A stretch of DNA of 15,804 nt from a virus. Both the position numbers and the translations under genes were made by a program. A model generated the notes under the pieces. The model had not been told where the DNA came from and did not search any database. It saw only the letters and a program-made list of their open reading frames with translations. The stretch lies in UHGV virus genome UHGV-0041830, one strand, 5' to 3'. This document shows, piece by piece, positions 5,906 through 15,804 of this stretch (its first letter is position 1; every line of letters begins with the position of its first letter).

Positions 5906-6439
5906 ATGGCGATAAAAGGGCTTGATCAGGCGATTGACAATCTGAGCCGGGTTCGTAAAAACGCCATTCCGGCGGCTTCAGCAATGGCCATTAACCGCGT
6001 GGCCACAACGGCGATTAATCAGTCTTCATCACAGGTTGCCCGGGAGACAAAGGTTCGCCGGAAACTGGTTAAGGAACGGTCCAGACTGAAACGGGCGACG
6101 GTCAGAAATCCGAATGCCAGAATTATCGTTAACCGCGGTGATCTCCCTGTGATTAAGCTGGGGATCAGGATGCTGGGGCGTCGCCCGAACAGCATACTTA
6201 AAGCCGGTCAGCATCGGTATCAGCGGGCATTTATTCAGAGATTAAAAAATGGTCGCTGGCATGTCATGCAGCGTGTGGCCGGGAAAAACCGTTACCCCAT
6301 TGATGTGGTGAAAATCCCGATGGCGGCCCCACTGAAACAGGCATTTGATGAGAATGTTGACCGTATCCGGCGTGAACGCCTGCCTAAAGAACTGGCATAC
6401 GCGCTGAAACAACAACTGAGGATTGCAATAAAACGATGA
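5906..6439 (+). CDS. Z: Tail completion protein Z
   Basis: 177 aa basic protein in the lambda Z position between FII and U. AGGGTG RBS. Stop overlaps the U start (ATGA). Confidence 0.88.
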   Translation: MAIKGLDQAIDNLSRVRKNAIPAASAMAINRVATTAINQSSSQVARETKVRRKLVKERSRLKRATVRNPNARIIVNRGDLPVIKLGIRMLGRRPNSILKAGQHRYQRAFIQRLKNGRWHVMQRVAGKNRYPIDVVKIPMAAPLKQAFDENVDRIRRERLPKELAYALKQQLRIAIKR

Positions 6440-8476: not shown

Positions 8477-11030
8477 TCTTGTTATTGACCTGAGTCTGGA
8501 TGCTGTCCGTTTCGATGAGCAGATGAGCCGGGTAAGGCGTCATTTTTCAGGTCTGGATACCGACGCCAGAAAAACCGCCAGTGCTGTTGAACAGGGCCTG
8601 AGCCGCCAGGCGCTGGCTGCACAAAAAGCCGGGATTTCCGTCGGGCAGTATAAAGCGGCCATGCGAACCCTGCCCGCACAGTTTACGGATATCGCCACGC
8701 AGCTTGCCGGTGGTCAGAATCCCTGGTTGATCCTGCTGCAACAGGGCGGTCAGGTGAAGGACTCCTTCGGCGGGATGATCCCCATGTTCAGGGGGCTTGC
8801 CGGTGCGATCACCCTGCCGATGGTCGGGGTCACCTCGCTGGCGGTGGCGACAGGTGCGCTGGCGTACGCCTGGTACCAGGGCGACGCCACGCTTTCAGAA
8901 TTTAATAAAACGCTGGTCCTTTCCGGCAATCAGGCCGGACTGACTGCCGATCGTATGCTGACGCTCTCAAGAGCCGGGCAGGCAGCAGGGCTGACGTTTA
9001 ACCAGGCGAGAGAGTCACTGGCAGCCTTGGTGAATGCCGGTGTGCGTGGTGGTGAACAGTTTGATGCCATCAACCAGAGTGTCGCGCGTTTTGCGTCTGC
9101 ATCCGGTGTGGAGGTGGATAAAGTCGCTGAAGCCTTCGGGAAGCTGACCACTGACCCGACGTCGGGACTGATGGCGATGGCGCGCCAGTTCCGTAACGTG
9201 ACGGCAGAGCAGATTGCGTATGTTGCACAGCTGCAGCGTTCCGGAGACGAGGCCGGGGCATTGCAGGCGGCGAACGATATCGCCACGAAAGGCTTTGATG
9301 AGCAGACCCGTCGCCTGAAAGAAAACATGGGAACACTGGAGACCTGGGCGGATAAAACAGGGAAGGCATTCAAATCGATGTGGGATGCCATTCTGGATAT
9401 CGGTCGTCCGGAATCCTCAGCGGATATGCTCGCCAGTGCGCAGAAGGCATTTGATGAGGCGGATAAAAAATGGCAGTGGTACCAGAGCCGGAGCCAGCGC
9501 CGGGGAAAGACCTCCTCTTTTCGTGCGAACCTTCAGGGGGCATGGGATGACCGGGAAAATGCCCGTCTGGGTCTGGCAGCGGCCACGCTGCAGTCGGATA
9601 TGGAAAAAGCCGGTGAACTGGCGGCAAGGGACAGGGCTGAGCGTGAGTCGTCACAGCTGAAGTATACCGGAGAGGCGCAGAAGGCGTATGAGCGCCTGCA
9701 GACGCCGCTGGATAAATATACCGCCCGTCAGAAAGAGCTGAATAAGGCCCTGAAAGACGGAAAAATCCTGCAGGCGGATTACAACACGCTGATGGCGTCG
9801 GCAAAAAAGGATTATGAATCGACGCTGAAAAAGCCGTCAGGTGTGAAGGTGTCTACCGGTGAGCGCCAGGAAGACCGGGCGCATGCAGCCCTGCTGGCGC
9901 TTGAAACCGAGCTCAGGACGCTGGAAAAACACAGCGGTGTGAATGAGAAAATCAGCCAGCAGCGCCGGGATTTATGGGAAGCGGAAAGTCAGTATGTGGT
10001 CCTGAAAGAGGCCGCCACGAAACGGCAGTTATCTGAGCAGGAAAAATCCCTGCTGGCTCATGAGAAAGAGACGCTGGAGTACAAACGCCAGCTGGCTGAG
10101 CTGGGAGACAAGATTGAACACCAGAAGCGGCTGAATGAGCTGGCACAGCAGGCGGCGCGGTTTGAACAGCAGCAAAGCGCGAAGCAGGCGGCAATCAGCG
10201 CAAAAGCCCGCGGCCTCACCGACCGTCAGGCGCAGCGGGAGTCGGAAGAGCAGCGCCTTCGTGAGGTGTACGGTGATAATCCGGCTGCGCTGGCGAAGGC
10301 CACATCGGCACTGAAGAACACCTGGTCTGCGGAGGAGCAGCTTCGTGGAAGCTGGATGGCCGGGATGAAGTCCGGCTGGGGAGAGTGGGCGGAAAGTGCG
10401 ACGGACAGTTTTTCGCAGGTTAAAAGTGTGGCCACGCAGACCTTTGACGGTATTGCACAGAATATGGCGGCGATGCTGACCGGCAGCGAACAGAACTGGC
10501 GGGGATTCACCCGTTCCGTGCTGTCCATGATGACAGAAATTCTGCTTAAGCAGGCAATGGTGGGGATTGTCGGGAGTATCGGCAGCGCTATTGGCGGGGC
10601 TGTTGGTGGCGGCGCATCCGCGTCAGGCGGTACAGCCATTCAGGCCGCTGCGGCGAAATTCCATTTTGCAACCGGAGGATTTACGGGAACCGGCGGCAAA
10701 TATGAGCCAGCGGGGATTGTTCACCGTGGTGAATTTGTCTTCACAAAGGAGGCAACCAGCCGGATTGGCGTGGGGAATCTCTATCGGCTGATGCGCGGCT
10801 ATGCCACCGGTGGTTATGTCGGTACACCGGGCAGTCTGGCTGACAGCCGGTCGCAGGCGTCCGGGACGTTTGAGCAGAATAACCATGTGGTGATTAACAA
10901 CGACGGCACGAACGGGCAGATAGGTCCGGCTGCTCTGAAGGCGGTGTATGACATGGCCCGCAAGGGTGCCCGTGATGAAATCCAGGCACAGATGCGCGAT
11001 GGTGGTCTGTTCTCCGGAGGTGGACGATGA
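8457..11030 (+). CDS. H: Tail tape measure protein H
   Basis: 857 aa (lambda H 853 aa). Long near-identical runs to lambda H (PVGDLVIDLSLDA, GISVGQYKAAMR, NPWLILLQQGGQVKDSFGGMIPMFRGLAGAITLPMVG, the C-terminal glycine-rich segment GGFTGTGGKYEPAGIVHRGEFVFTKEATSRIGVGNLYRLMRGYATGGYVG). Start overlaps the T-frame end by 20 nt. Confidence 0.95.
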   Translation: MSQPVGDLVIDLSLDAVRFDEQMSRVRRHFSGLDTDARKTASAVEQGLSRQALAAQKAGISVGQYKAAMRTLPAQFTDIATQLAGGQNPWLILLQQGGQVKDSFGGMIPMFRGLAGAITLPMVGVTSLAVATGALAYAWYQGDATLSEFNKTLVLSGNQAGLTADRMLTLSRAGQAAGLTFNQARESLAALVNAGVRGGEQFDAINQSVARFASASGVEVDKVAEAFGKLTTDPTSGLMAMARQFRNVTAEQIAYVAQLQRSGDEAGALQAANDIATKGFDEQTRRLKENMGTLETWADKTGKAFKSMWDAILDIGRPESSADMLASAQKAFDEADKKWQWYQSRSQRRGKTSSFRANLQGAWDDRENARLGLAAATLQSDMEKAGELAARDRAERESSQLKYTGEAQKAYERLQTPLDKYTARQKELNKALKDGKILQADYNTLMASAKKDYESTLKKPSGVKVSTGERQEDRAHAALLALETELRTLEKHSGVNEKISQQRRDLWEAESQYVVLKEAATKRQLSEQEKSLLAHEKETLEYKRQLAELGDKIEHQKRLNELAQQAARFEQQQSAKQAAISAKARGLTDRQAQRESEEQRLREVYGDNPAALAKATSALKNTWSAEEQLRGSWMAGMKSGWGEWAESATDSFSQVKSVATQTFDGIAQNMAAMLTGSEQNWRGFTRSVLSMMTEILLKQAMVGIVGSIGSAIGGAVGGGASASGGTAIQAAAAKFHFATGGFTGTGGKYEPAGIVHRGEFVFTKEATSRIGVGNLYRLMRGYATGGYVGTPGSLADSRSQASGTFEQNNHVVINNDGTNGQIGPAALKAVYDMARKGARDEIQAQMRDGGLFSGGGR

Positions 11031-12161: not shown

Positions 12162-12905
12162 ATGACAGAGACAGAATCAGCGATTCTGGCGCACGCCCGG
12201 CGATGTGCGCCAGCGGAGTCGTGCGGCTTCGTGGTAAGCACGCCGGAGGGGGAAAGATATTTCCCCTGCGTGAATATCTCCGGTGAGCCGGAGGCGTATT
12301 TCCGGATGGCTCCGGAGGACTGGCTGCAGGCAGAGATGCAGGGTGAGATTGTGGCGCTGGTCCACAGTCATCCCGGTGGTCTGCCCTGGCTGAGTGAGGC
12401 CGACCGGCGGCTGCAGGTGCAGAGTGATTTGCCGTGGTGGCTGGTCTGCCGGGGGGCGATTCATAAGTTCCGCTGTGTGCCGCATCTCACCGGGCGGCGC
12501 TTTGAGTACGGGGTGACAGACTGTTACACACTGTTCCGGGATGCTTACCATCTGGCGGGGATTGAGATGCCGGATTTTCATCGCGGGGATGACTGGTGGC
12601 GTCACGGTCAGAATCTCTATCTTGACAATATGGAGGCTACTGGTTTTTACCGTGTCGCACTGACAGAGGCGCAGCCGGGCGATGTGCTGCTGTGCTGTTT
12701 TGGTTCATCGGTGCCGAATCACGCCGCCATTTACTGCGGCGACGGTGAGCTGCTGCACCATATTCCTGAACAACTGAGTAAACGAGAGAGGTATACCGAC
12801 AAATGGCAGCGACGCACACACTCCCTCTGGCGTCACCGGGAATGGCACGCATCTGCCTTTACGGGGATTTGCAACGATTTGGCCGCCGCATCGACCTTCG
12901 TGTGA
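12162..12905 (+). CDS. K: Tail tip assembly protein K, JAB/MPN (JAMM) metalloprotease-like plus NlpC/P60 domains, full-length reading
   Basis: ATG at 12162 is 4 nt after the L stop, open to TGA at 12903-12905. JAMM motif HSHPGGLPWLSEAD (12364-12403) with upstream ESCG (12206-12217). Cys in VTDCYTLF and His residues downstream fit an NlpC/P60 core. The shorter reading from the internal ATG at 12306 is about 199 aa. Confidence 0.82.
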   Translation: MTETESAILAHARRCAPAESCGFVVSTPEGERYFPCVNISGEPEAYFRMAPEDWLQAEMQGEIVALVHSHPGGLPWLSEADRRLQVQSDLPWWLVCRGAIHKFRCVPHLTGRRFEYGVTDCYTLFRDAYHLAGIEMPDFHRGDDWWRHGQNLYLDNMEATGFYRVALTEAQPGDVLLCCFGSSVPNHAAIYCGDGELLHHIPEQLSKRERYTDKWQRRTHSLWRHREWHASAFTGICNDLAAASTFV

Positions 12906-13444
12906 AAACGGGGGCTGAAGCCATCCGGGCACTGGCCACACAGCTCCCGGCGTTTCGTCAGAAACTGAGCGATGGCTGGTATCAGGTACGGATTGCCGGG
13001 CGGGATGCAGGAGAAACCGAATTATCATCCCGTCTTAATGAGCCGCTGGCAAATGGTGCCGTGATCCACATCGTGCCGCGTCTTGCGGGAGCAAAAAGTG
13101 GCGGTGTGTTTCAGGCGGTGCTGGGTGCGGCGTTGATTGCTACGGCAATCTGGATGCCGGGGATCAGTATCGCTTTCAGTGACATTCTCTTTTCAATGGG
13201 TGCGGCGATGACGCTTGGTGGTGTGGCGCAGATGCTGGCACCGAAAGCCAGAACTCCCCGTACACAGACAACGGATAACGGCAAACAGAACACCTATTTC
13301 TCCTCACTGGATAACATGGTTGCCCAGGGCAATGTCCTGCCTGTTCTGTACGGTGAAATGCGCGTGGGGTCACGTGTGGCATCTCAGGAGATCAGCACGG
13401 CAGATGAAGGGGATGGTGGTCAGGTTGTGGTAATTGGGCGGTAA
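12803..13444 (+). CDS. I: Tail tip assembly protein I (variant allele), N-terminal ubiquitin-like domain ending in Gly-Gly
   Basis: 213 aa. N- and C-terminal thirds match lambda gpI. The central segment (DAGETELSSRLNEPLANG...AVLGAALIATAIWMPGISIAFSDILFSMGAAMTLGG) differs from the second copy at 14195-14775. Overlaps K by 103 nt. An alternative start at ATG 12842 is possible. Confidence 0.85.
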   Translation: MAATHTLPLASPGMARICLYGDLQRFGRRIDLRVKTGAEAIRALATQLPAFRQKLSDGWYQVRIAGRDAGETELSSRLNEPLANGAVIHIVPRLAGAKSGGVFQAVLGAALIATAIWMPGISIAFSDILFSMGAAMTLGGVAQMLAPKARTPRTQTTDNGKQNTYFSSLDNMVAQGNVLPVLYGEMRVGSRVASQEISTADEGDGGQVVVIGR

Positions 13445-13517
13445 TATTATTTTACTCATGTTCTAACTAATTTAATATTTATATCGAACACTGATAATTA
13501 TTCTATTGGTTAGCTAT
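13445..13517 (+). promoter_or_regulatory. AT-rich putative promoter/leader of the inserted lipoprotein gene
   Basis: Extremely AT-rich 73 bp. Candidate -35 TTTAAT (13471-13476) and -10 GATAAT (13493-13498) with 16-bp spacer. Weak, unvalidated prediction. Confidence 0.3.
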
Positions 13518-13856
13518 ATGAACAAAACGATTTTATTCTGCACGATTATTGCCTTAACAGGATGTAAATCTTTGGATTACGTAAAATCCGGAAAACCTGT
13601 AATGGAAGGTAATTCATTAAAAAATATTGATGAATTGTCAGGCTGCATATCCAGACAATGGGCTGGTAATGGAACACCTATAACATCCCTTCCTATTGAG
13701 AATGGGGTAAGCCTTTTAGTTCCACAGGCTATGGGGGGATATGATGTTGTGCTTGATATCAAAAAAGCAGGAAATGGCAGTAGTTTTACTCTTTATGAAC
13801 GTGTACCAGCATTAACGCCAAAAATTTTTGCTGATAGTGTTAATGCATGTAAATAA
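13518..13856 (+). CDS. Predicted outer-membrane lipoprotein of unknown function (moron inserted between tail genes I and J)
   Basis: 112 aa. N-terminus MNKTILFCTIIALTG|CKS is a textbook signal peptidase II signal: basic n-region, hydrophobic core, lipobox L-T-G-C, and Lys (not Asp) at +2 after the lipidated Cys. Two further Cys residues. Tandem TAA TAG stops. ~36% GC against GC-rich flanks. Start could alternatively be TTG 13506. Confidence 0.75.
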   Translation: MNKTILFCTIIALTGCKSLDYVKSGKPVMEGNSLKNIDELSGCISRQWAGNGTPITSLPIENGVSLLVPQAMGGYDVVLDIKKAGNGSSFTLYERVPALTPKIFADSVNACK

Positions 13857-13880
13857 TAGTTAATCCTGTCGTAACTCATG

Positions 13881-13908
13881 AGCCGCCTTTTGGGCGGCTT
13901 TGTTGTTT
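13881..13908 (+). terminator. GC hairpin plus T-tract between the moron and J (conserved in the second I-J junction)
   Basis: AGCCGCC (13881-13887), loop TTTTG, GGCGGCT (13893-13899), then TTGTTGTTT. Lies 14 nt upstream of the J ATG. Confidence 0.45.
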
Positions 13909-13922
13909 ATGGAGTGTGAGGA

Positions 13923-14184
13923 ATGGGTAAAGGAAGCAGTAAGGGGCATACCCCGCGCGAAGCGAGGGACAACCTGAAGTCCACGCAGCTGCTGAGTGTG
14001 ATCGATGCCATCAGCGAAGGGCCGGTTGAAGGTCCGGTGGATGGATTAAAAAGCGTGCTGCTGAACAGTACGCCGGTGCTGGACAGTGAGGGGAATACCA
14101 ATATATCCGGTGTCACGGTGGTGTTCCGGGCAGGTGAGCAGGAGCAGACACCGCCGGAGGGATTTGAATCCTCCGGCTCCGAGA
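13923..14184 (+). CDS. J: Central tail fiber / tip attachment protein J, N-terminal 87 codons (copy 1, cut by N10 gap)
   Basis: MGKGSSKGHTPREARDNLKSTQLLSVIDAISEGPVEGPVDGLKSVLLNSTPVLDSEGNTNISGVTVVFRAGEQEQTPPEGFESSGSE matches the lambda J N-terminus almost exactly. GAGGA RBS. Confidence 0.92.
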
Positions 14185-14194
14185 NNNNNNNNNN
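14185..14194. other. Assembly gap (N10) joining a segment ending in J to a segment beginning inside the K/I overlap
   Basis: Run of 10 n. Post-gap sequence accttcgtgtgaaaacgggggctgaagcc... corresponds to 12894 onward, so this is not a simple overlap: the following segment is an alternative copy of the I-J locus. Confidence 0.95.
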
Positions 14195-14775
14195 ACCTTC
14201 GTGTGAAAACGGGGGCTGAAGCCATCCGCGCACTGGCCACACAGCTCCCGGTGTTTCGTCAGAAACTGAGCGACGGCTGGTATCAGGTACGGATTGCCGG
14301 GCGGGACGTCAGCACGTCCGGGTTAACGGCGCAGTTACATGAGACTCTGCCTGATGGCGCTGTGATTCATATTGTTCCCAGAGTCGCCGGGGCCAAGTCA
14401 GGTGGCGTATTCCAGATTGTCCTGGGGGCTGCCGCCATTGCCGGATCATTCTTTACCGCCGGAGCCACCCTTGCAGCATGGGGGGCAGCCATTGGGGCCG
14501 GTGGTATGACCGGCATCCTGTTTTCTCTCGGTGCCAGTATGGTGCTCGGTGGTGTGGCGCAGATGCTGGCACCGAAAGCCAGAACTCCCCGTACACAGAC
14601 AACGGATAACGGCAAACAGAACACCTATTTCTCCTCACTGGATAACATGGTTGCCCAGGGCAATGTTCTGCCGGTTCTGTACGGTGAAATGCGCGTGGGG
14701 TCACGCGTGGTTTCTCAGGAGATCAGCACGGCAGACGAAGGGGATGGTGGTCAGGTTGTGGTGATTGGTCGCTGA
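14195..14775 (+). CDS. I: Tail tip assembly protein I (lambda-like allele), 5'-truncated by gap
   Basis: Codon boundary at 14197, stop TGA 14773-14775. Central segment DVSTSGLTAQLHETLPDGAVIHIVPRVAGAKSGGVFQIVLGAAAIAGSFFTAGATLAAWGAAIGAGGMTGILFSLGASMVLGG matches lambda gpI as I recall it. Confidence 0.88.
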
Positions 14776-14793
14776 TGCAAAATGTTTTATGTG

Positions 14794-14820
14794 AAACCGC
14801 CTCCGGGCGGTTTTATCGTT
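14794..14820 (+). terminator. GC hairpin plus T-tract upstream of J (second copy)
   Basis: AAACCGCC (14794-14801), loop TCCG, GGCGGTTT (14806-14813), perfect 8-bp stem followed by TATCGTTT. Same position relative to the J start as 13881-13908. Confidence 0.45.
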
Positions 14821-14835
14821 TATGGAGCATGAGGA

Positions 14836-15220
14836 ATGGGTAAAGGCAGCAGTAAGGGGCATACCCCGCGCGAAGCGAAGGACAACCTGAAATCATCCCA
14901 GATGCTGAGCGTGATAGACGCCATCAGCGAAGGGCCGGTTGAAGGTCCGGTGGATGGATTAAAAAGCGTGCTGCTGAACAGTACGCCGGTGCTGGACAGT
15001 GAGGGGAATACCAATATATTCGGCGTCACGGTGGTGTTCCGGGCCGGTGAGCAGGAGCAGACTCCGCCGGAGGGATTTGAATCCTCCGGCTCCGAGACGG
15101 TGCTGGGTACGGAAGTGAAATATGACACGCCGATCACCCGGACCATCACGTCGGCAAACATCGACCGTCTGCGCTTTACCTTCGGTGTGCAGGCACTGGT
15201 GGAAACCACCTCAAAGGGGG
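14836..15220 (+). CDS. J: Tail tip attachment protein J, N-terminal part (copy 2, pre-gap)
   Basis: Near-identical to 13923-14184 and to the lambda J N-terminus. Continues ...TVLGTEVKYDTPITRTITSANIDRLRFTFGVQALVETTSKG. Confidence 0.92.
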
Positions 15221-15230
15221 NNNNNNNNNN
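15221..15230. other. Assembly gap (N10); flanks 15128-15220 and 15231-15323 are 93-bp near-identical copies within J
   Basis: Run of 10 n. cgccgatcacccggaccatcacgtcggcaaacat... is present on both sides with substitutions. Confidence 0.95.
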
Positions 15231-15804
15231 CGCCGATCACCCGGACCATCACGTCGGCAAACATTGACCGTCTGCGTTTTACTTTCGGCGTGCAGGCACT
15301 GGTGGAAACCACCTCAAAGGGGGACAGGAATCCATCGGAAGTCCGCCTGCTGGTTCAGATTCAACGTAACGGTGGCTGGGTGACGGAAAAAGACATCACC
15401 ATTAAGGGCAAAACCACGTCGCAGTATCTGGCCTCGGTGGTGGTGGATAACCTGCCGCCGCGCCCGTTTAATATCCGGATGCGCAGGATGACGCCGGACA
15501 GCACCACAGACCAGTTGCAGAACAAAACGCTCTGGTCGTCATACACCGAAATCATCGATGTGAAACAGTGCTACCCGAACACGGCACTGGTCGGCGTACA
15601 GGTGGACTCGGAGCAGTTCGGCAGCCAGCAGGTGAGCCGTAATTATCATCTTCGCGGGCGCATTCTGCAGGTGCCGTCGAACTATAACCCGCAGACGCGG
15701 CAATACAGCGGTATCTGGGACGGAACGTTTAAGCCAGCATACAGCAACAACATGGCCTGGTGTCTGTGGGATATGCTGACCCATCCGCGCTACGGCATGG
15801 GGAA
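15231..15804 (+). CDS. J: Tail tip attachment protein J, continuation, 3'-partial at window edge
   Basis: Codon boundary at 15233. Translation ...PITRTITSANIDRLRFTFGVQALVETTSKGDRNPSEVRLLVQIQRNGGWVTEKDITIKGKTTSQYLASVVVDNLPPRPFNIRMRRMTPDSTTDQLQNKTLWSSYTEIIDVKQCYPNTALVGVQVDSEQFGSQQVSRNYHLRGRILQVPSNYNPQTRQYSGIWDGTFKPAYSNNMAWCLWDMLTHPRYGMG matches lambda J residues ~100-300. Confidence 0.92.

What the first reader, a model, noticed from the sequence alone, without database searches (positions are those of the whole stretch)
13445..13908. AT-rich moron encoding a predicted outer-membrane lipoprotein, inserted between tail genes I and J
Every other gene in the window has a lambda counterpart. This ~430-bp block does not. 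It is ~36% GC (hand count over 13518-13856) inside a GC-rich operon, it has its own AT-rich upstream region with -35/-10-like hexamers, and it ends just before a hairpin/T-tract. The encoded 112-aa protein starts with an unmistakable lipoprotein signal (MNKTILFCTIIALTG|C, lipobox LTGC, Lys at +2, so predicted Lol sorting to the outer membrane). I do not recognise the mature part as any named family. Phage-encoded outer-membrane lipoproteins next to receptor-binding tail genes are known to act in superinfection exclusion by masking the receptor (Cor of phi80/N15/HK022, Llp of T5) or as lysogenic-conversion factors (Bor). By position and architecture this is a candidate exclusion or host-surface-modifying factor. 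It is the most likely place for undescribed biology here.
Basis: partly seen in the sequence, partly recalled or inferred. Interest (0 to 1): 0.8.

Follow-up and report, generated by a model that had tools for sequence, protein, structure and literature searches.

The report
Uncharacterised prophage lipoprotein moron in tail operon
A small AT-rich gene for an exported, lipid-anchored outer-membrane protein of unknown function sits between two tail genes of a lambda-like E. coli prophage; it is a real, conserved, mobile accessory gene, probably a cell-surface factor such as a block on other phages, but its function is untested.

Summary
Window 13518-13856 (+) encodes a 112-aa protein with a canonical lipoprotein signal (LTG|C16, Lys+2). 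It lies in a ~430-bp, 34% GC block (13446-13875) inserted between lambda-type genes I and J in a 57% GC operon. The junction is polymorphic: occupied in about 334-337 of 5,426 complete E. coli genomes and empty, as in lambda, in most others.

The gene is under purifying selection. It belongs to an unnamed family (phrog_914, no Pfam family, no paper found). The only contexts seen are temperate phages, prophages and a genomic island. Homologs occupy three different slots of lambdoid tail operons: I|J, K|I and T|H. T|H is the HK97 gp15 moron slot.

The AF2 model is a compact alpha+beta domain with two invariant cysteines. It shows only generic fold similarity (Flpp3, BamC-N) and no homology to Cor, Bor or the mEpimmI exclusion lipoproteins.

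- The downstream hairpin is a generic I-J spacer element that lambda itself has.
- The near-identical lipoprotein travels with at least three homologous but divergent J receptor-binding ends, plus a fourth unrelated J end. That argues against simple masking of the phage's own receptor.

Function stays inferred. The most likely role is a superinfection-exclusion or envelope-modifying factor.

The parts
12869..13444 (+). Gene I (tail tip assembly protein), left flank of the insertion. The stop codon ends at 13444.
   Evidence: UTI89 annotation mapped to the window. Homology to lambda I runs up to the stop.
13446..13875 (+). Inserted block (moron) that is absent from lambda-type junctions. About 430 bp, GC 0.337.
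   Evidence: Pairwise alignment with the lambda I-J junction. Junction spans fall in two size classes in E. coli genomes. Composition.
13445..13517 (+). AT-rich (GC 0.205) upstream spacer and putative promoter/leader region. The Shine-Dalgarno sequence is weak.
   Evidence: No site at 9/12 or better in the scan tool. It is as conserved as the CDS among 58 E. coli loci, with an indel at 13450 and an A/G polymorphism at 13505.
13493..13498 (+). Best -10-like hexamer, GATAAT (5/6). It would put the transcription start near 13505.
   Evidence: K|I-slot homologs carry a conserved TGnTAnnnT motif upstream of the gene. Inference only.
13518..13856 (+). Lipoprotein gene, 112 aa, a phrog_914 family member.
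   Evidence: Purifying selection: pN 0.09-0.34 against pS 0.64-0.82 between divergent homologs, and omega 0.075 for the one close pair with unsaturated synonymous sites. 9 of 16 within-E. coli substitutions, and 6 of the 7 common ones, are at third codon positions.
13518..13565 (+). Signal peptide with lipobox LTGC. The Cys16 codon is 13563-13565.
   Evidence: Read directly from the sequence. Cys16 is invariant in alignment A4.
13644..13646 (+). Cys43 codon, invariant. Inferred disulfide partner of Cys111 (codon 13848-13850).
   Evidence: C43 and C111 are invariant in 65 sequences. They lie in helix 37-50 and the C-terminal helix 103-111 of the model. The disulfide itself is inferred.
13880..13900 (+). 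Terminator-like hairpin of the I-J spacer, followed by TTTGTTGTTTATGGAG, which holds the SD for J. It is shared with empty junctions.
13923..15804 (+). 5' part of gene J (tail tip / host specificity), right flank. It runs off the window.

Best explanation
**What it is**
A moron: a horizontally acquired accessory gene inserted precisely between tail genes I and J of a lambda-like prophage. The prophage is identical to the one next to trp in UTI89, APEC O1 and S88.

**How the protein is made and placed (inferred from established pathways)**
- The 112-aa precursor is exported and lipidated at Cys16 by Lgt, LspA and Lnt.
- With Lys at +2, the Lol system sends it to the periplasmic face of the outer membrane.
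- The 96-residue mature part is one compact alpha+beta domain (beta-alpha-beta4-alpha), probably stapled by a Cys43-Cys111 disulfide.

**When it is made (inferred)**
- In the lysogen, probably from a weak promoter in the AT-rich spacer.
- Late in lytic growth, certainly, by read-through of the Q-antiterminated late transcript in which it is embedded.

**Most likely function (inferred, not shown)**
A phage-encoded envelope factor that blocks entry of other phages by binding an outer-membrane or periplasmic component. Blocking re-adsorption of progeny to debris is a related possibility. The lipoprotein does not co-vary with its own phage's J receptor-binding end. So the target is more likely a heterologous receptor or a post-adsorption step than the phage's own receptor.
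For: **Shown**
- Insertion polymorphism at an exact site. The cassette is in 337 of 5,426 complete E. coli genomes, 349 places.
- GC is 0.36-0.46 in the gene against 0.47-0.59 in the flanks in all 8 representative loci.
- Homologs with about 50% identity sit in K|I (Klebsiella, Kluyvera, phage Fraca) and T|H (Enterobacter, Citrobacter, Salmonella) slots.
- T|H is the slot of the HK97 gp15 exclusion moron (PMC3594210).
- Purifying selection.
- The lipobox Cys and two further Cys are invariant in 65 diverse members.
- Confident model, pLDDT 83.6.
- Every examined context is a temperate phage, prophage or genomic island. Distant members often lie on the strand opposite to their neighbours, or downstream of a repressor, which implies independent expression.
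- A conserved TGnTAnnnT motif lies upstream of the K|I-slot genes even though synonymous sites are saturated.

**Precedent**
- Lipoproteins encoded next to J in mEpimmI coliphages exclude phages when expressed from a plasmid (PMC11893012).
- T5 Llp is an outer-membrane inner-leaflet lipoprotein that binds FhuA (bioRxiv 10.64898/2026.03.26.714494, abstract).
Against: - No experiment and no homology links this family to any exclusion protein. hhalign against Cor, Lpp010, Lpp021 and Bor aligns only the signal peptide. PADLOC gives nothing.
- The E. coli allele (98-100% identical) is found with at least three homologous but divergent J C-terminal ends, plus a fourth unrelated one, and with tape-measure proteins 26-100% identical. 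It is therefore not a cognate partner of one receptor-binding domain.
- Phage Fraca has both a homolog and cor.
- The promoter in the E. coli cassette is weak by consensus: 8/12, none found by the scan tool.
- The Shine-Dalgarno sequence is poor.
Confidence: 0.4

Rival explanations
1. A lysogenic-conversion factor that benefits the bacterial host rather than the phage. Examples would be serum or complement resistance as with Bor/Iss, adhesion, or envelope stress tolerance, with no effect on phage entry.
For: - The identical cassette is present in ExPEC, APEC and NMEC reference strains (UTI89, S88, APEC O1, IHE3034, NU14, O18) and in O104:H4.
- It is an outer-membrane lipoprotein, like Bor.
- It does not co-vary with J.
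- The closest solved fold, Flpp3, is deposited under the title 'F. tularensis Virulence Determinant'.
Against: - No homology to Bor: Pfam gives none, and hhalign gives 14.8% probability on the signal peptide only.
- Carriers also include environmental, animal and commensal isolates.
- The family is nearly always embedded among tail genes of siphophages across several genera, which suggests a phage-centred role.
- A periplasm-facing lipoprotein would need surface exposure to act on complement.
Confidence: 0.2
2. A lytic-cycle function made only from the late transcript. Examples: protecting progeny from adsorbing to lysed-cell debris, aiding lysis or release, or neutralising a periplasmic activity of the tail tip. 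It would not be expressed in the lysogen.
For: - The gene is co-oriented inside the late operon in all three slots.
- In Klebsiella only 32 bp separate K from the gene.
- The sigma-70 consensus is weak in the E. coli cassette.
- It lies next to K (JAB + NlpC/P60) or I in most contexts, and next to an orphan gpI-like gene in phage phiAH14a.
Against: - A conserved extended -10-like motif sits upstream in K|I cassettes.
- A terminator-like hairpin follows the gene in every slot.
- Distant members sit on the opposite strand to late genes or in the immunity region.
- Only about 4% of matched I-J places in E. coli carry it, so it is dispensable for virion production.
Confidence: 0.15
3. A small-ligand-binding or chaperone-like periplasmic lipoprotein (helix-grip / Bet v 1-like pocket) that alters envelope lipid or metabolite handling, unrelated to phage or serum resistance.
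Against: - The matches are weak (TM about 0.5, identity 6-13%) and heterogeneous.
- The 96-residue domain is smaller than ligand-binding START or Bet v 1 domains.
Confidence: 0.1
4. A structural or assembly component of the tail, or a spurious ORF in an AT-rich spacer.
For: Its position is among tail genes. The ORF was missing from the original UTI89 annotation, as the late-added locus tag RS29190 shows.
Against: - Export signal plus an invariant lipobox.
- Present in only about 6% of genomes, at a junction that is otherwise empty.
- Three different slots.
- pN well below pS, and variation concentrated at third codon positions.
Confidence: 0.03

Closest known systems
HK97 gp15 moron (superinfection exclusion; Cumby et al. 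2012, summarised in PMC3594210)
   Same: - A small, compositionally deviant accessory gene inserted co-directionally inside the lambdoid tail operon.
- The Enterobacter, Citrobacter and Salmonella homologs of the lipoprotein occupy the very same slot, between the tail assembly chaperone G/T and the tape measure.
- Both are envelope proteins.
   Different: - gp15 is a YebO-like inner-membrane protein, not a lipoprotein.
- No similarity was detected (no Pfam hit at all).
- gp15's exclusion depends on the tail region of the infecting phage. Nothing is known for this protein.
Cor (phi80/N15/HK022/mEp167) and T5 Llp: receptor-blocking outer-membrane lipoproteins
   Same: - Phage-encoded small lipoproteins predicted or shown to sit in the outer membrane.
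- Encoded close to the receptor-binding tail gene.
- Cysteine-containing mature domains.
   Different: - No homology. hhalign against Fraca Cor gives 2.6% probability, on the signal peptide only. The PHROG hit is only phrog_914.
- The mature part is larger (96 aa against about 60) and alpha+beta.
- It lies upstream of J, not downstream.
- It does not co-vary with the J receptor-binding end, and it coexists with cor in phage Fraca.
mEpimmI Lpp010 / Lpp021 exclusion lipoproteins (PMC11893012)
   Same: - Lipoprotein genes inside the structural module of J-type siphophages of E. coli.
- Plasmid expression was shown to exclude phages in plating assays.
   Different: - They are 72-82 aa, lie on the opposite strand downstream of J, and are unrelated beyond the signal peptide.
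- In that paper their types track the receptor used (OmpA or LamB).
Lambda Bor / Iss (serum-resistance lipoprotein) and Lom
   Same: Moron-encoded outer-membrane proteins of lambdoid prophages. Lom sits just after J in the same prophage.
   Different: No homology to Bor. Different location: bor is by the lysis genes.
Flpp3 (DUF3568) of Francisella and the BamC N-terminal domain
   Different: Identity is 6-10%, and there is no Pfam DUF3568 hit. The similarity is at the level of a common fold shared with many unrelated proteins.

Membership tests
Moron (Juhala/Hendrix definition) | Extra DNA between two genes that are adjacent in related phages | tested here: met
   Lambda and most E. coli prophages have I and J 60 bp apart. 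Here a ~430-bp block is inserted right after the I stop.
Moron (Juhala/Hendrix definition) | Nucleotide composition different from the neighbours | tested here: met
   GC is 0.337 against 0.566. The same holds for homologs in 8 loci.
Moron (Juhala/Hendrix definition) | Own promoter | tested here: inconclusive
   No site at 9/12 or better. The best is 8/12 with GATAAT at 13493. K|I-slot homologs carry a conserved TGnTAnnnT motif.
Moron (Juhala/Hendrix definition) | Own terminator | tested here: inconclusive
   A hairpin plus T-run follows the gene in every slot. At I|J the same hairpin also exists in empty junctions, so it was not brought by the insert.
Moron (Juhala/Hendrix definition) | Expressed from the repressed prophage | not testable with these tools
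   Needs RNA-seq, 5'-RACE or a reporter in a lysogen.
Bacterial lipoprotein, outer-membrane sorted | Signal peptide with lipobox [LVI][ASTVI][GAS]C | tested here: met
   MNK-TILFCTIIA-LTG-C16. The Cys is invariant in 65 members.
Bacterial lipoprotein, outer-membrane sorted | No Asp at +2 (the Lol avoidance signal) | tested here: met
   +2 is Lys in the close family and Ala or Ser in distant members.
Bacterial lipoprotein, outer-membrane sorted | LspA-dependent processing, acylation and outer-membrane localisation | not testable with these tools
   Needs globomycin treatment, palmitate labelling and fractionation.
Cor superinfection-exclusion family | Sequence homology to Cor | tested here: not met
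   hhalign of A2 against Fraca Cor gives 2.6% probability, on the signal peptide only. PHROGs gives only phrog_914.
Cor superinfection-exclusion family | Blocks FhuA-dependent phages | not testable with these tools
   Needs a plating assay.
T5 Llp family | Sequence or fold similarity to Llp | tested here: inconclusive
Lambda Bor / Iss (PF06291) | Sequence homology | tested here: not met
   Pfam gives no family at E up to 10. hhalign gives 14.8% probability, on the signal peptide only.
mEpimmI Lpp exclusion lipoproteins | Sequence homology to Lpp010 or Lpp021 | tested here: not met
   hhalign aligns only residues 1-18.
DUF3568 / Flpp3 | Pfam family membership | tested here: not met
PHROG 914 | Full-length profile match | tested here: met
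   E = 7.3e-33, residues 1-112 on profile positions 1-118 of 118. The family is annotated 'unknown function'.
Known anti-phage defence systems (PADLOC) | Profile match | tested here: not met
   0 families at E up to 10.

The most novel reading that the evidence does not exclude
The family defines a new class of temperate-phage outer-membrane lipoproteins. It would protect lysogens against a broad set of lambdoid siphophages at a step independent of the J receptor-binding domain, for example by interfering with tail-tip opening or passage through the outer membrane and periplasm. This differs from the receptor-plugging mechanism of Cor and Llp. The recurring adjacency to K and I would then reflect the target.
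Probability: 0.15. Interest if true: 0.65.

Novelty: new variant of a known kind. Interest (0 to 1): 0.42.

Why it matters
Prophage morons are a main source of lysogenic conversion and phage resistance.

- This one is common. The exact protein is on at least 1,000 contigs, and the cassette is in about 6% of complete E. coli genomes. Carriers include the ExPEC, APEC and NMEC reference strains UTI89, S88, APEC O1 and IHE3034, and O104:H4.
- It has no name, no Pfam family and no paper that I could find.
- It was not even annotated in the original UTI89 record.

If it excludes phages, it would affect phage-therapy host ranges in ExPEC lineages and add a new structural class to the Cor/Llp type of defence. 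If it acts on the host surface, it is a candidate fitness factor. Either way it can be tested with one plasmid and a phage panel.

The observation that one gene has colonised three different intergenic slots of the tail operon, each ending in a terminator-like hairpin, also bears on how morons move.

Tried and rejected
- **Profile libraries.** Pfam, NCBIfam and PADLOC scans gave nothing useful. The only NCBIfam hit, VirB7, covers the signal peptide.
- **PDB by sequence.** A profile search found nothing.
- **Deposited phage genomes.** tblastn at E up to 1e-5 found nothing. At E up to 10 it found only distant members: Fraca, LMessi, two Klebsiella phages and phiAH14a.
- **AFDB.** The Foldseek library was unavailable.
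- **Locus scans.**
  - The wide alignment A4 was too diverse for the locus scan.
  - The scan of species-representative genomes found only one genome, a Kluyvera sp..
- **Hairpin as part of the cassette.** Rejected, because empty junctions have it. I also considered that lambda's hairpin is a scar of a lost cassette. I rejected that as unnecessary, because Klebsiella, Enterobacter and Fraca I-J spacers also carry it while their lipoprotein sits elsewhere.
- **Self-receptor masking as the default model.** Tested through co-variation with the J C-terminus. Not supported.
- **GcvB Rfam hit.** 19.6 bits against a gathering score of 42. Judged spurious.
- **'YceK'.** One JGI record uses this name for a distant member. 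No Pfam hit supports it.
- **Literature.** Searches for WP_001332187, phrog_914 and combinations of lipoprotein, moron, I and J found nothing specific.

Full report
**1. What is in the sequence**

The ORF runs from 13518 to 13856 on the + strand and encodes 112 aa: MNKTILFCTIIALTGCKSLDYVKSGKPVMEG...NACK.
- The N-terminus has one basic residue, a 10-residue hydrophobic core and the lipobox L-T-G-C16.
- Residue +2 is Lys and +3 is Ser. By the established Lol sorting rule this predicts outer-membrane localisation.
- GC is 0.363 for the CDS (third positions 0.241), 0.205 for the 73-bp spacer upstream and 0.337 for the whole insert. The rest of the window is 0.566.

**2. It is an insertion at a precise site**

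The window is identical to the lambda-like prophage next to the trp operon of UTI89. There the gene is WP_001332187.1, 'hypothetical protein'. Its locus tag (RS29190) is out of series, which shows it was added after the original annotation.

Aligned with lambda, homology runs to the stop codon of I (13444) and resumes at about 13876. Lambda has a 60-bp spacer where this window has about 480 bp. All lambda-like phages in the GenBank phage collection match only the I and J flanks.

In 5,426 complete E. coli genomes:
- The I/J flanks occur at 8,629 places in 4,285 genomes.
- The cassette is in 337 genomes, at 349 places.
- In a spread sample, the junctions that matched both I and J spanned either about 283 bp or about 700 bp. 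A few sampled rows matched only I or only J.

**3. The hairpin**

The terminator-like hairpin at 13880-13900 is real. Lambda has the same element in its empty spacer.

Klebsiella, Enterobacter and phage Fraca I-J spacers also carry an equivalent hairpin, followed by a T-run and TTTATGGR, although their lipoprotein homolog sits elsewhere. The hairpin is therefore a generic feature of the I-J junction, not part of the insert. It can still terminate transcripts that start in the moron.

**4. The promoter**

The scan tool finds no + strand sigma-70 site at its 9/12 threshold. My own scan finds several 8/12 combinations. The best -10 is GATAAT at 13493-13498. In 20% GC DNA, matches like this are expected by chance.

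Stronger evidence comes from the homologs in the K|I slot. Their synonymous sites are saturated. Even so, Klebsiella, Kluyvera, L071 and a 29%-identical Klebsiella phage gene all carry TG[C/T]TA[A/C]T[C/A]T upstream of the gene (in the Klebsiella and Kluyvera loci a few bases after the K stop). That fits the extended -10 pattern TGnTAnnnT.

An own promoter is therefore plausible, but it is not shown for this cassette. Because the gene is co-oriented inside the Q-antiterminated late operon, late transcription is expected from established lambda biology.

**5. It is a real gene in an unnamed family**

- Pfam gives nothing. NCBIfam gives only a signal-peptide-level VirB7 match. PADLOC gives nothing. 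PHROGs gives a full-length hit to phrog_914, 'unknown function'.
- The word-indexed search finds about 50-60% identical homologs in Klebsiella, Kluyvera, Enterobacter, Citrobacter, Salmonella and Jejubacter.
- The exhaustive profile search finds 125 cluster representatives, nearly all 105-125-aa proteins.
- In a 65-sequence alignment only three residues are invariant: the lipobox Cys16, Cys43 and Cys111. P27, W48 and G63 are nearly invariant.
- None of the 65 matches the Pfam family of any named lipoprotein. Three single members gave only marginal hits at E 0.005-0.009.
- Between divergent homologs pS is 0.64-0.82, which is saturated, while pN is 0.09-0.34. The one close pair has omega 0.075.
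- Within E. coli, 9 of 16 substitutions, and 6 of the 7 common ones, are at third codon positions.
- A few decayed alleles exist (L067-L069, P0002, P0018).

**6. Structure**

AF2 with the family alignment gives pLDDT 83.6 and pTM 0.75. The topology is beta-alpha-beta4-alpha. Cys43 lies in the long helix and Cys111 at the end of the C-terminal helix, so a disulfide is likely. That is an inference.

- Foldseek's best PDB hit is Flpp3 (E 6e-3, TM 0.52).
- This is a common helix-grip-like fold and carries no functional information.
- In BFVD the only good match is a protein of Pseudomonas phage phiAH14a (TM 0.70/0.83). Translating upstream of its annotated start shows that it is itself a lipoprotein of the family.

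**7. Genomic contexts**

With UTI89 tail proteins as probes:
- Every E. coli cassette is I|LPP|J.
- Klebsiella, Kluyvera, L071, L079, L080, phage Fraca and Klebsiella phage ST846-OXA48phi9.1 have K|LPP|I.
- Enterobacter, Citrobacter and Salmonella have T|LPP|H. This is exactly the slot of the founding moron, HK97 gene 15 (PMC3594210).

All these copies are GC-poor relative to their flanks and are followed by a hairpin plus T-run.

More distant members lie elsewhere:
- On the opposite strand inside a prophage replication module.
- Beside head genes of a small phage-like element.
- In an integrase-bearing island next to alaS-csrA.
- In phiAH14a, downstream of the repressor and next to an orphan gpI-like gene.

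Every context I examined is a temperate phage, prophage or genomic island.

**8. Test of the receptor-masking idea**

Among the 40 IMG/VR, UTI89 and related loci with a complete J, the 98-100% identical lipoprotein is paired with four different J C-terminal 200-aa types, found in 25, 6, 3 and 2 loci. The remaining four loci were unclustered singletons.
- Three of the types are only 48-55% identical to lambda's LamB-binding end.
- The fourth type is unrelated to lambda's end.
- Tape-measure proteins in these loci range from 26 to 100% identity.

Phage Fraca carries both a family member in the K|I slot and an annotated cor gene after J. Profile comparisons with Fraca Cor, lambda Bor and the experimentally validated mEpimmI exclusion lipoproteins Lpp010 and Lpp021 align only the signal peptide (PMC11893012).

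So the protein is not a member of any known exclusion or conversion family, and it is not a cognate partner of one receptor-binding domain.

**9. Interpretation**

Shown: a mobile, selected, temperate-phage-associated gene for a predicted outer-membrane lipoprotein that has colonised three intergenic slots of lambdoid tail operons.

Inferred: expression in the lysogen, the disulfide, and the function.

By analogy with HK97 gp15, Cor, Llp and the mEpimmI lipoproteins, the most likely role is interference with incoming phages at the envelope. Given the lack of co-variation with J, the target is more likely a heterologous receptor or a post-adsorption step. I put this at about 0.4. A host-benefit conversion factor gets about 0.2, a late-only lytic function about 0.15, and ligand binding about 0.1. 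A structural role or a spurious ORF is effectively excluded.

**10. Novelty**

The kind of element is well known: a moron encoding an envelope protein in a lambdoid prophage. The protein family is uncharacterised and structurally unlike Cor, Llp and Bor.

Interest is moderate. The element is common, is present in clinically important lineages and is easy to test. Its existence would not surprise a phage biologist.

Noticed in passing
window 13857-13922; L081 (lambda) 745-805; L003 6990-7053; L008 12285-12336; L082 7337-7391 and 7992-8044: A terminator-like hairpin (GCCRCC...GGYGGC, T-run, then TTTATGGR providing the SD of the next gene) is conserved in the I-J spacer of lambda, Klebsiella, Enterobacter and Fraca phages, whether or not a moron is present. 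In Fraca, near-duplicate hairpins flank gene I. Its role inside a Q-antiterminated operon is unclear. It could insulate against stray transcription in lysogens, or serve as a recombination site for morons.
   Followed up: partly
L003 ~5960-6000, L079, L091, L071, L084 (upstream of the lipoprotein gene): K|I-slot cassettes share TG[C/T]TA[A/C]T[C/A]T, which fits the extended -10 pattern TGnTAnnnT. It sits upstream of the lipoprotein gene, in the Klebsiella and Kluyvera loci a few bases after the K stop codon, and it is conserved although synonymous sites in the CDS are saturated. This is a phylogenetic footprint of a likely promoter.
   Followed up: partly
L092 (phage mEp021) 45958-46524: mEp021 carries a putative HNH endonuclease gene between I and J, so the I|J slot hosts other cargo in other phages.
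   Followed up: no
L070 2050-6000: In a Jejubacter-like prophage, the K|I slot holds about 4 kb of extra genes (Arc-like, Bro-N, KilA-N, and a CI-like HTH_3 immediately upstream and co-oriented) before the lipoprotein gene. The slot looks like a cargo hot spot, possibly with its own regulator.
   Followed up: partly
L083 (Pseudomonas phage phiAH14a) 5960-6945: The annotated 93-aa p33 starts too late. The real ORF begins MRIAALGLAVALLSGC and is a lipoprotein of this family. It lies downstream of the repressor and directly upstream of an orphan gene with a weak Lambda_tail_I match, away from any other recognisable tail gene in the stretch examined.
   Followed up: partly
window 13450 and 13505: Among 58 E. 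coli loci the upstream spacer has a one-base T-run length polymorphism at 13450 (22 against 37 sequences) and an A/G polymorphism at 13505 (38 against 21). Position 13505 is where transcription would start if GATAAT (13493-13498) is the -10.
   Followed up: no
L082 (phage Fraca) 6725-6994 and 12579-12812: Fraca has an extra 89-aa ORF with no Pfam match just upstream of its lipoprotein homolog in the K|I slot. It also has an annotated cor gene downstream of J, so two different lipoprotein genes sit in one tail module.
   Followed up: partly
L067-L069; proteins P0002, P0018: Some E. coli copies of the lipoprotein gene are frameshifted or truncated, which indicates occasional decay in prophage remnants.
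   Followed up: no
window 13683-13908: Sub-threshold Rfam match to GcvB (19.6 bits, gathering score 42). I judged it spurious.
   Followed up: yes
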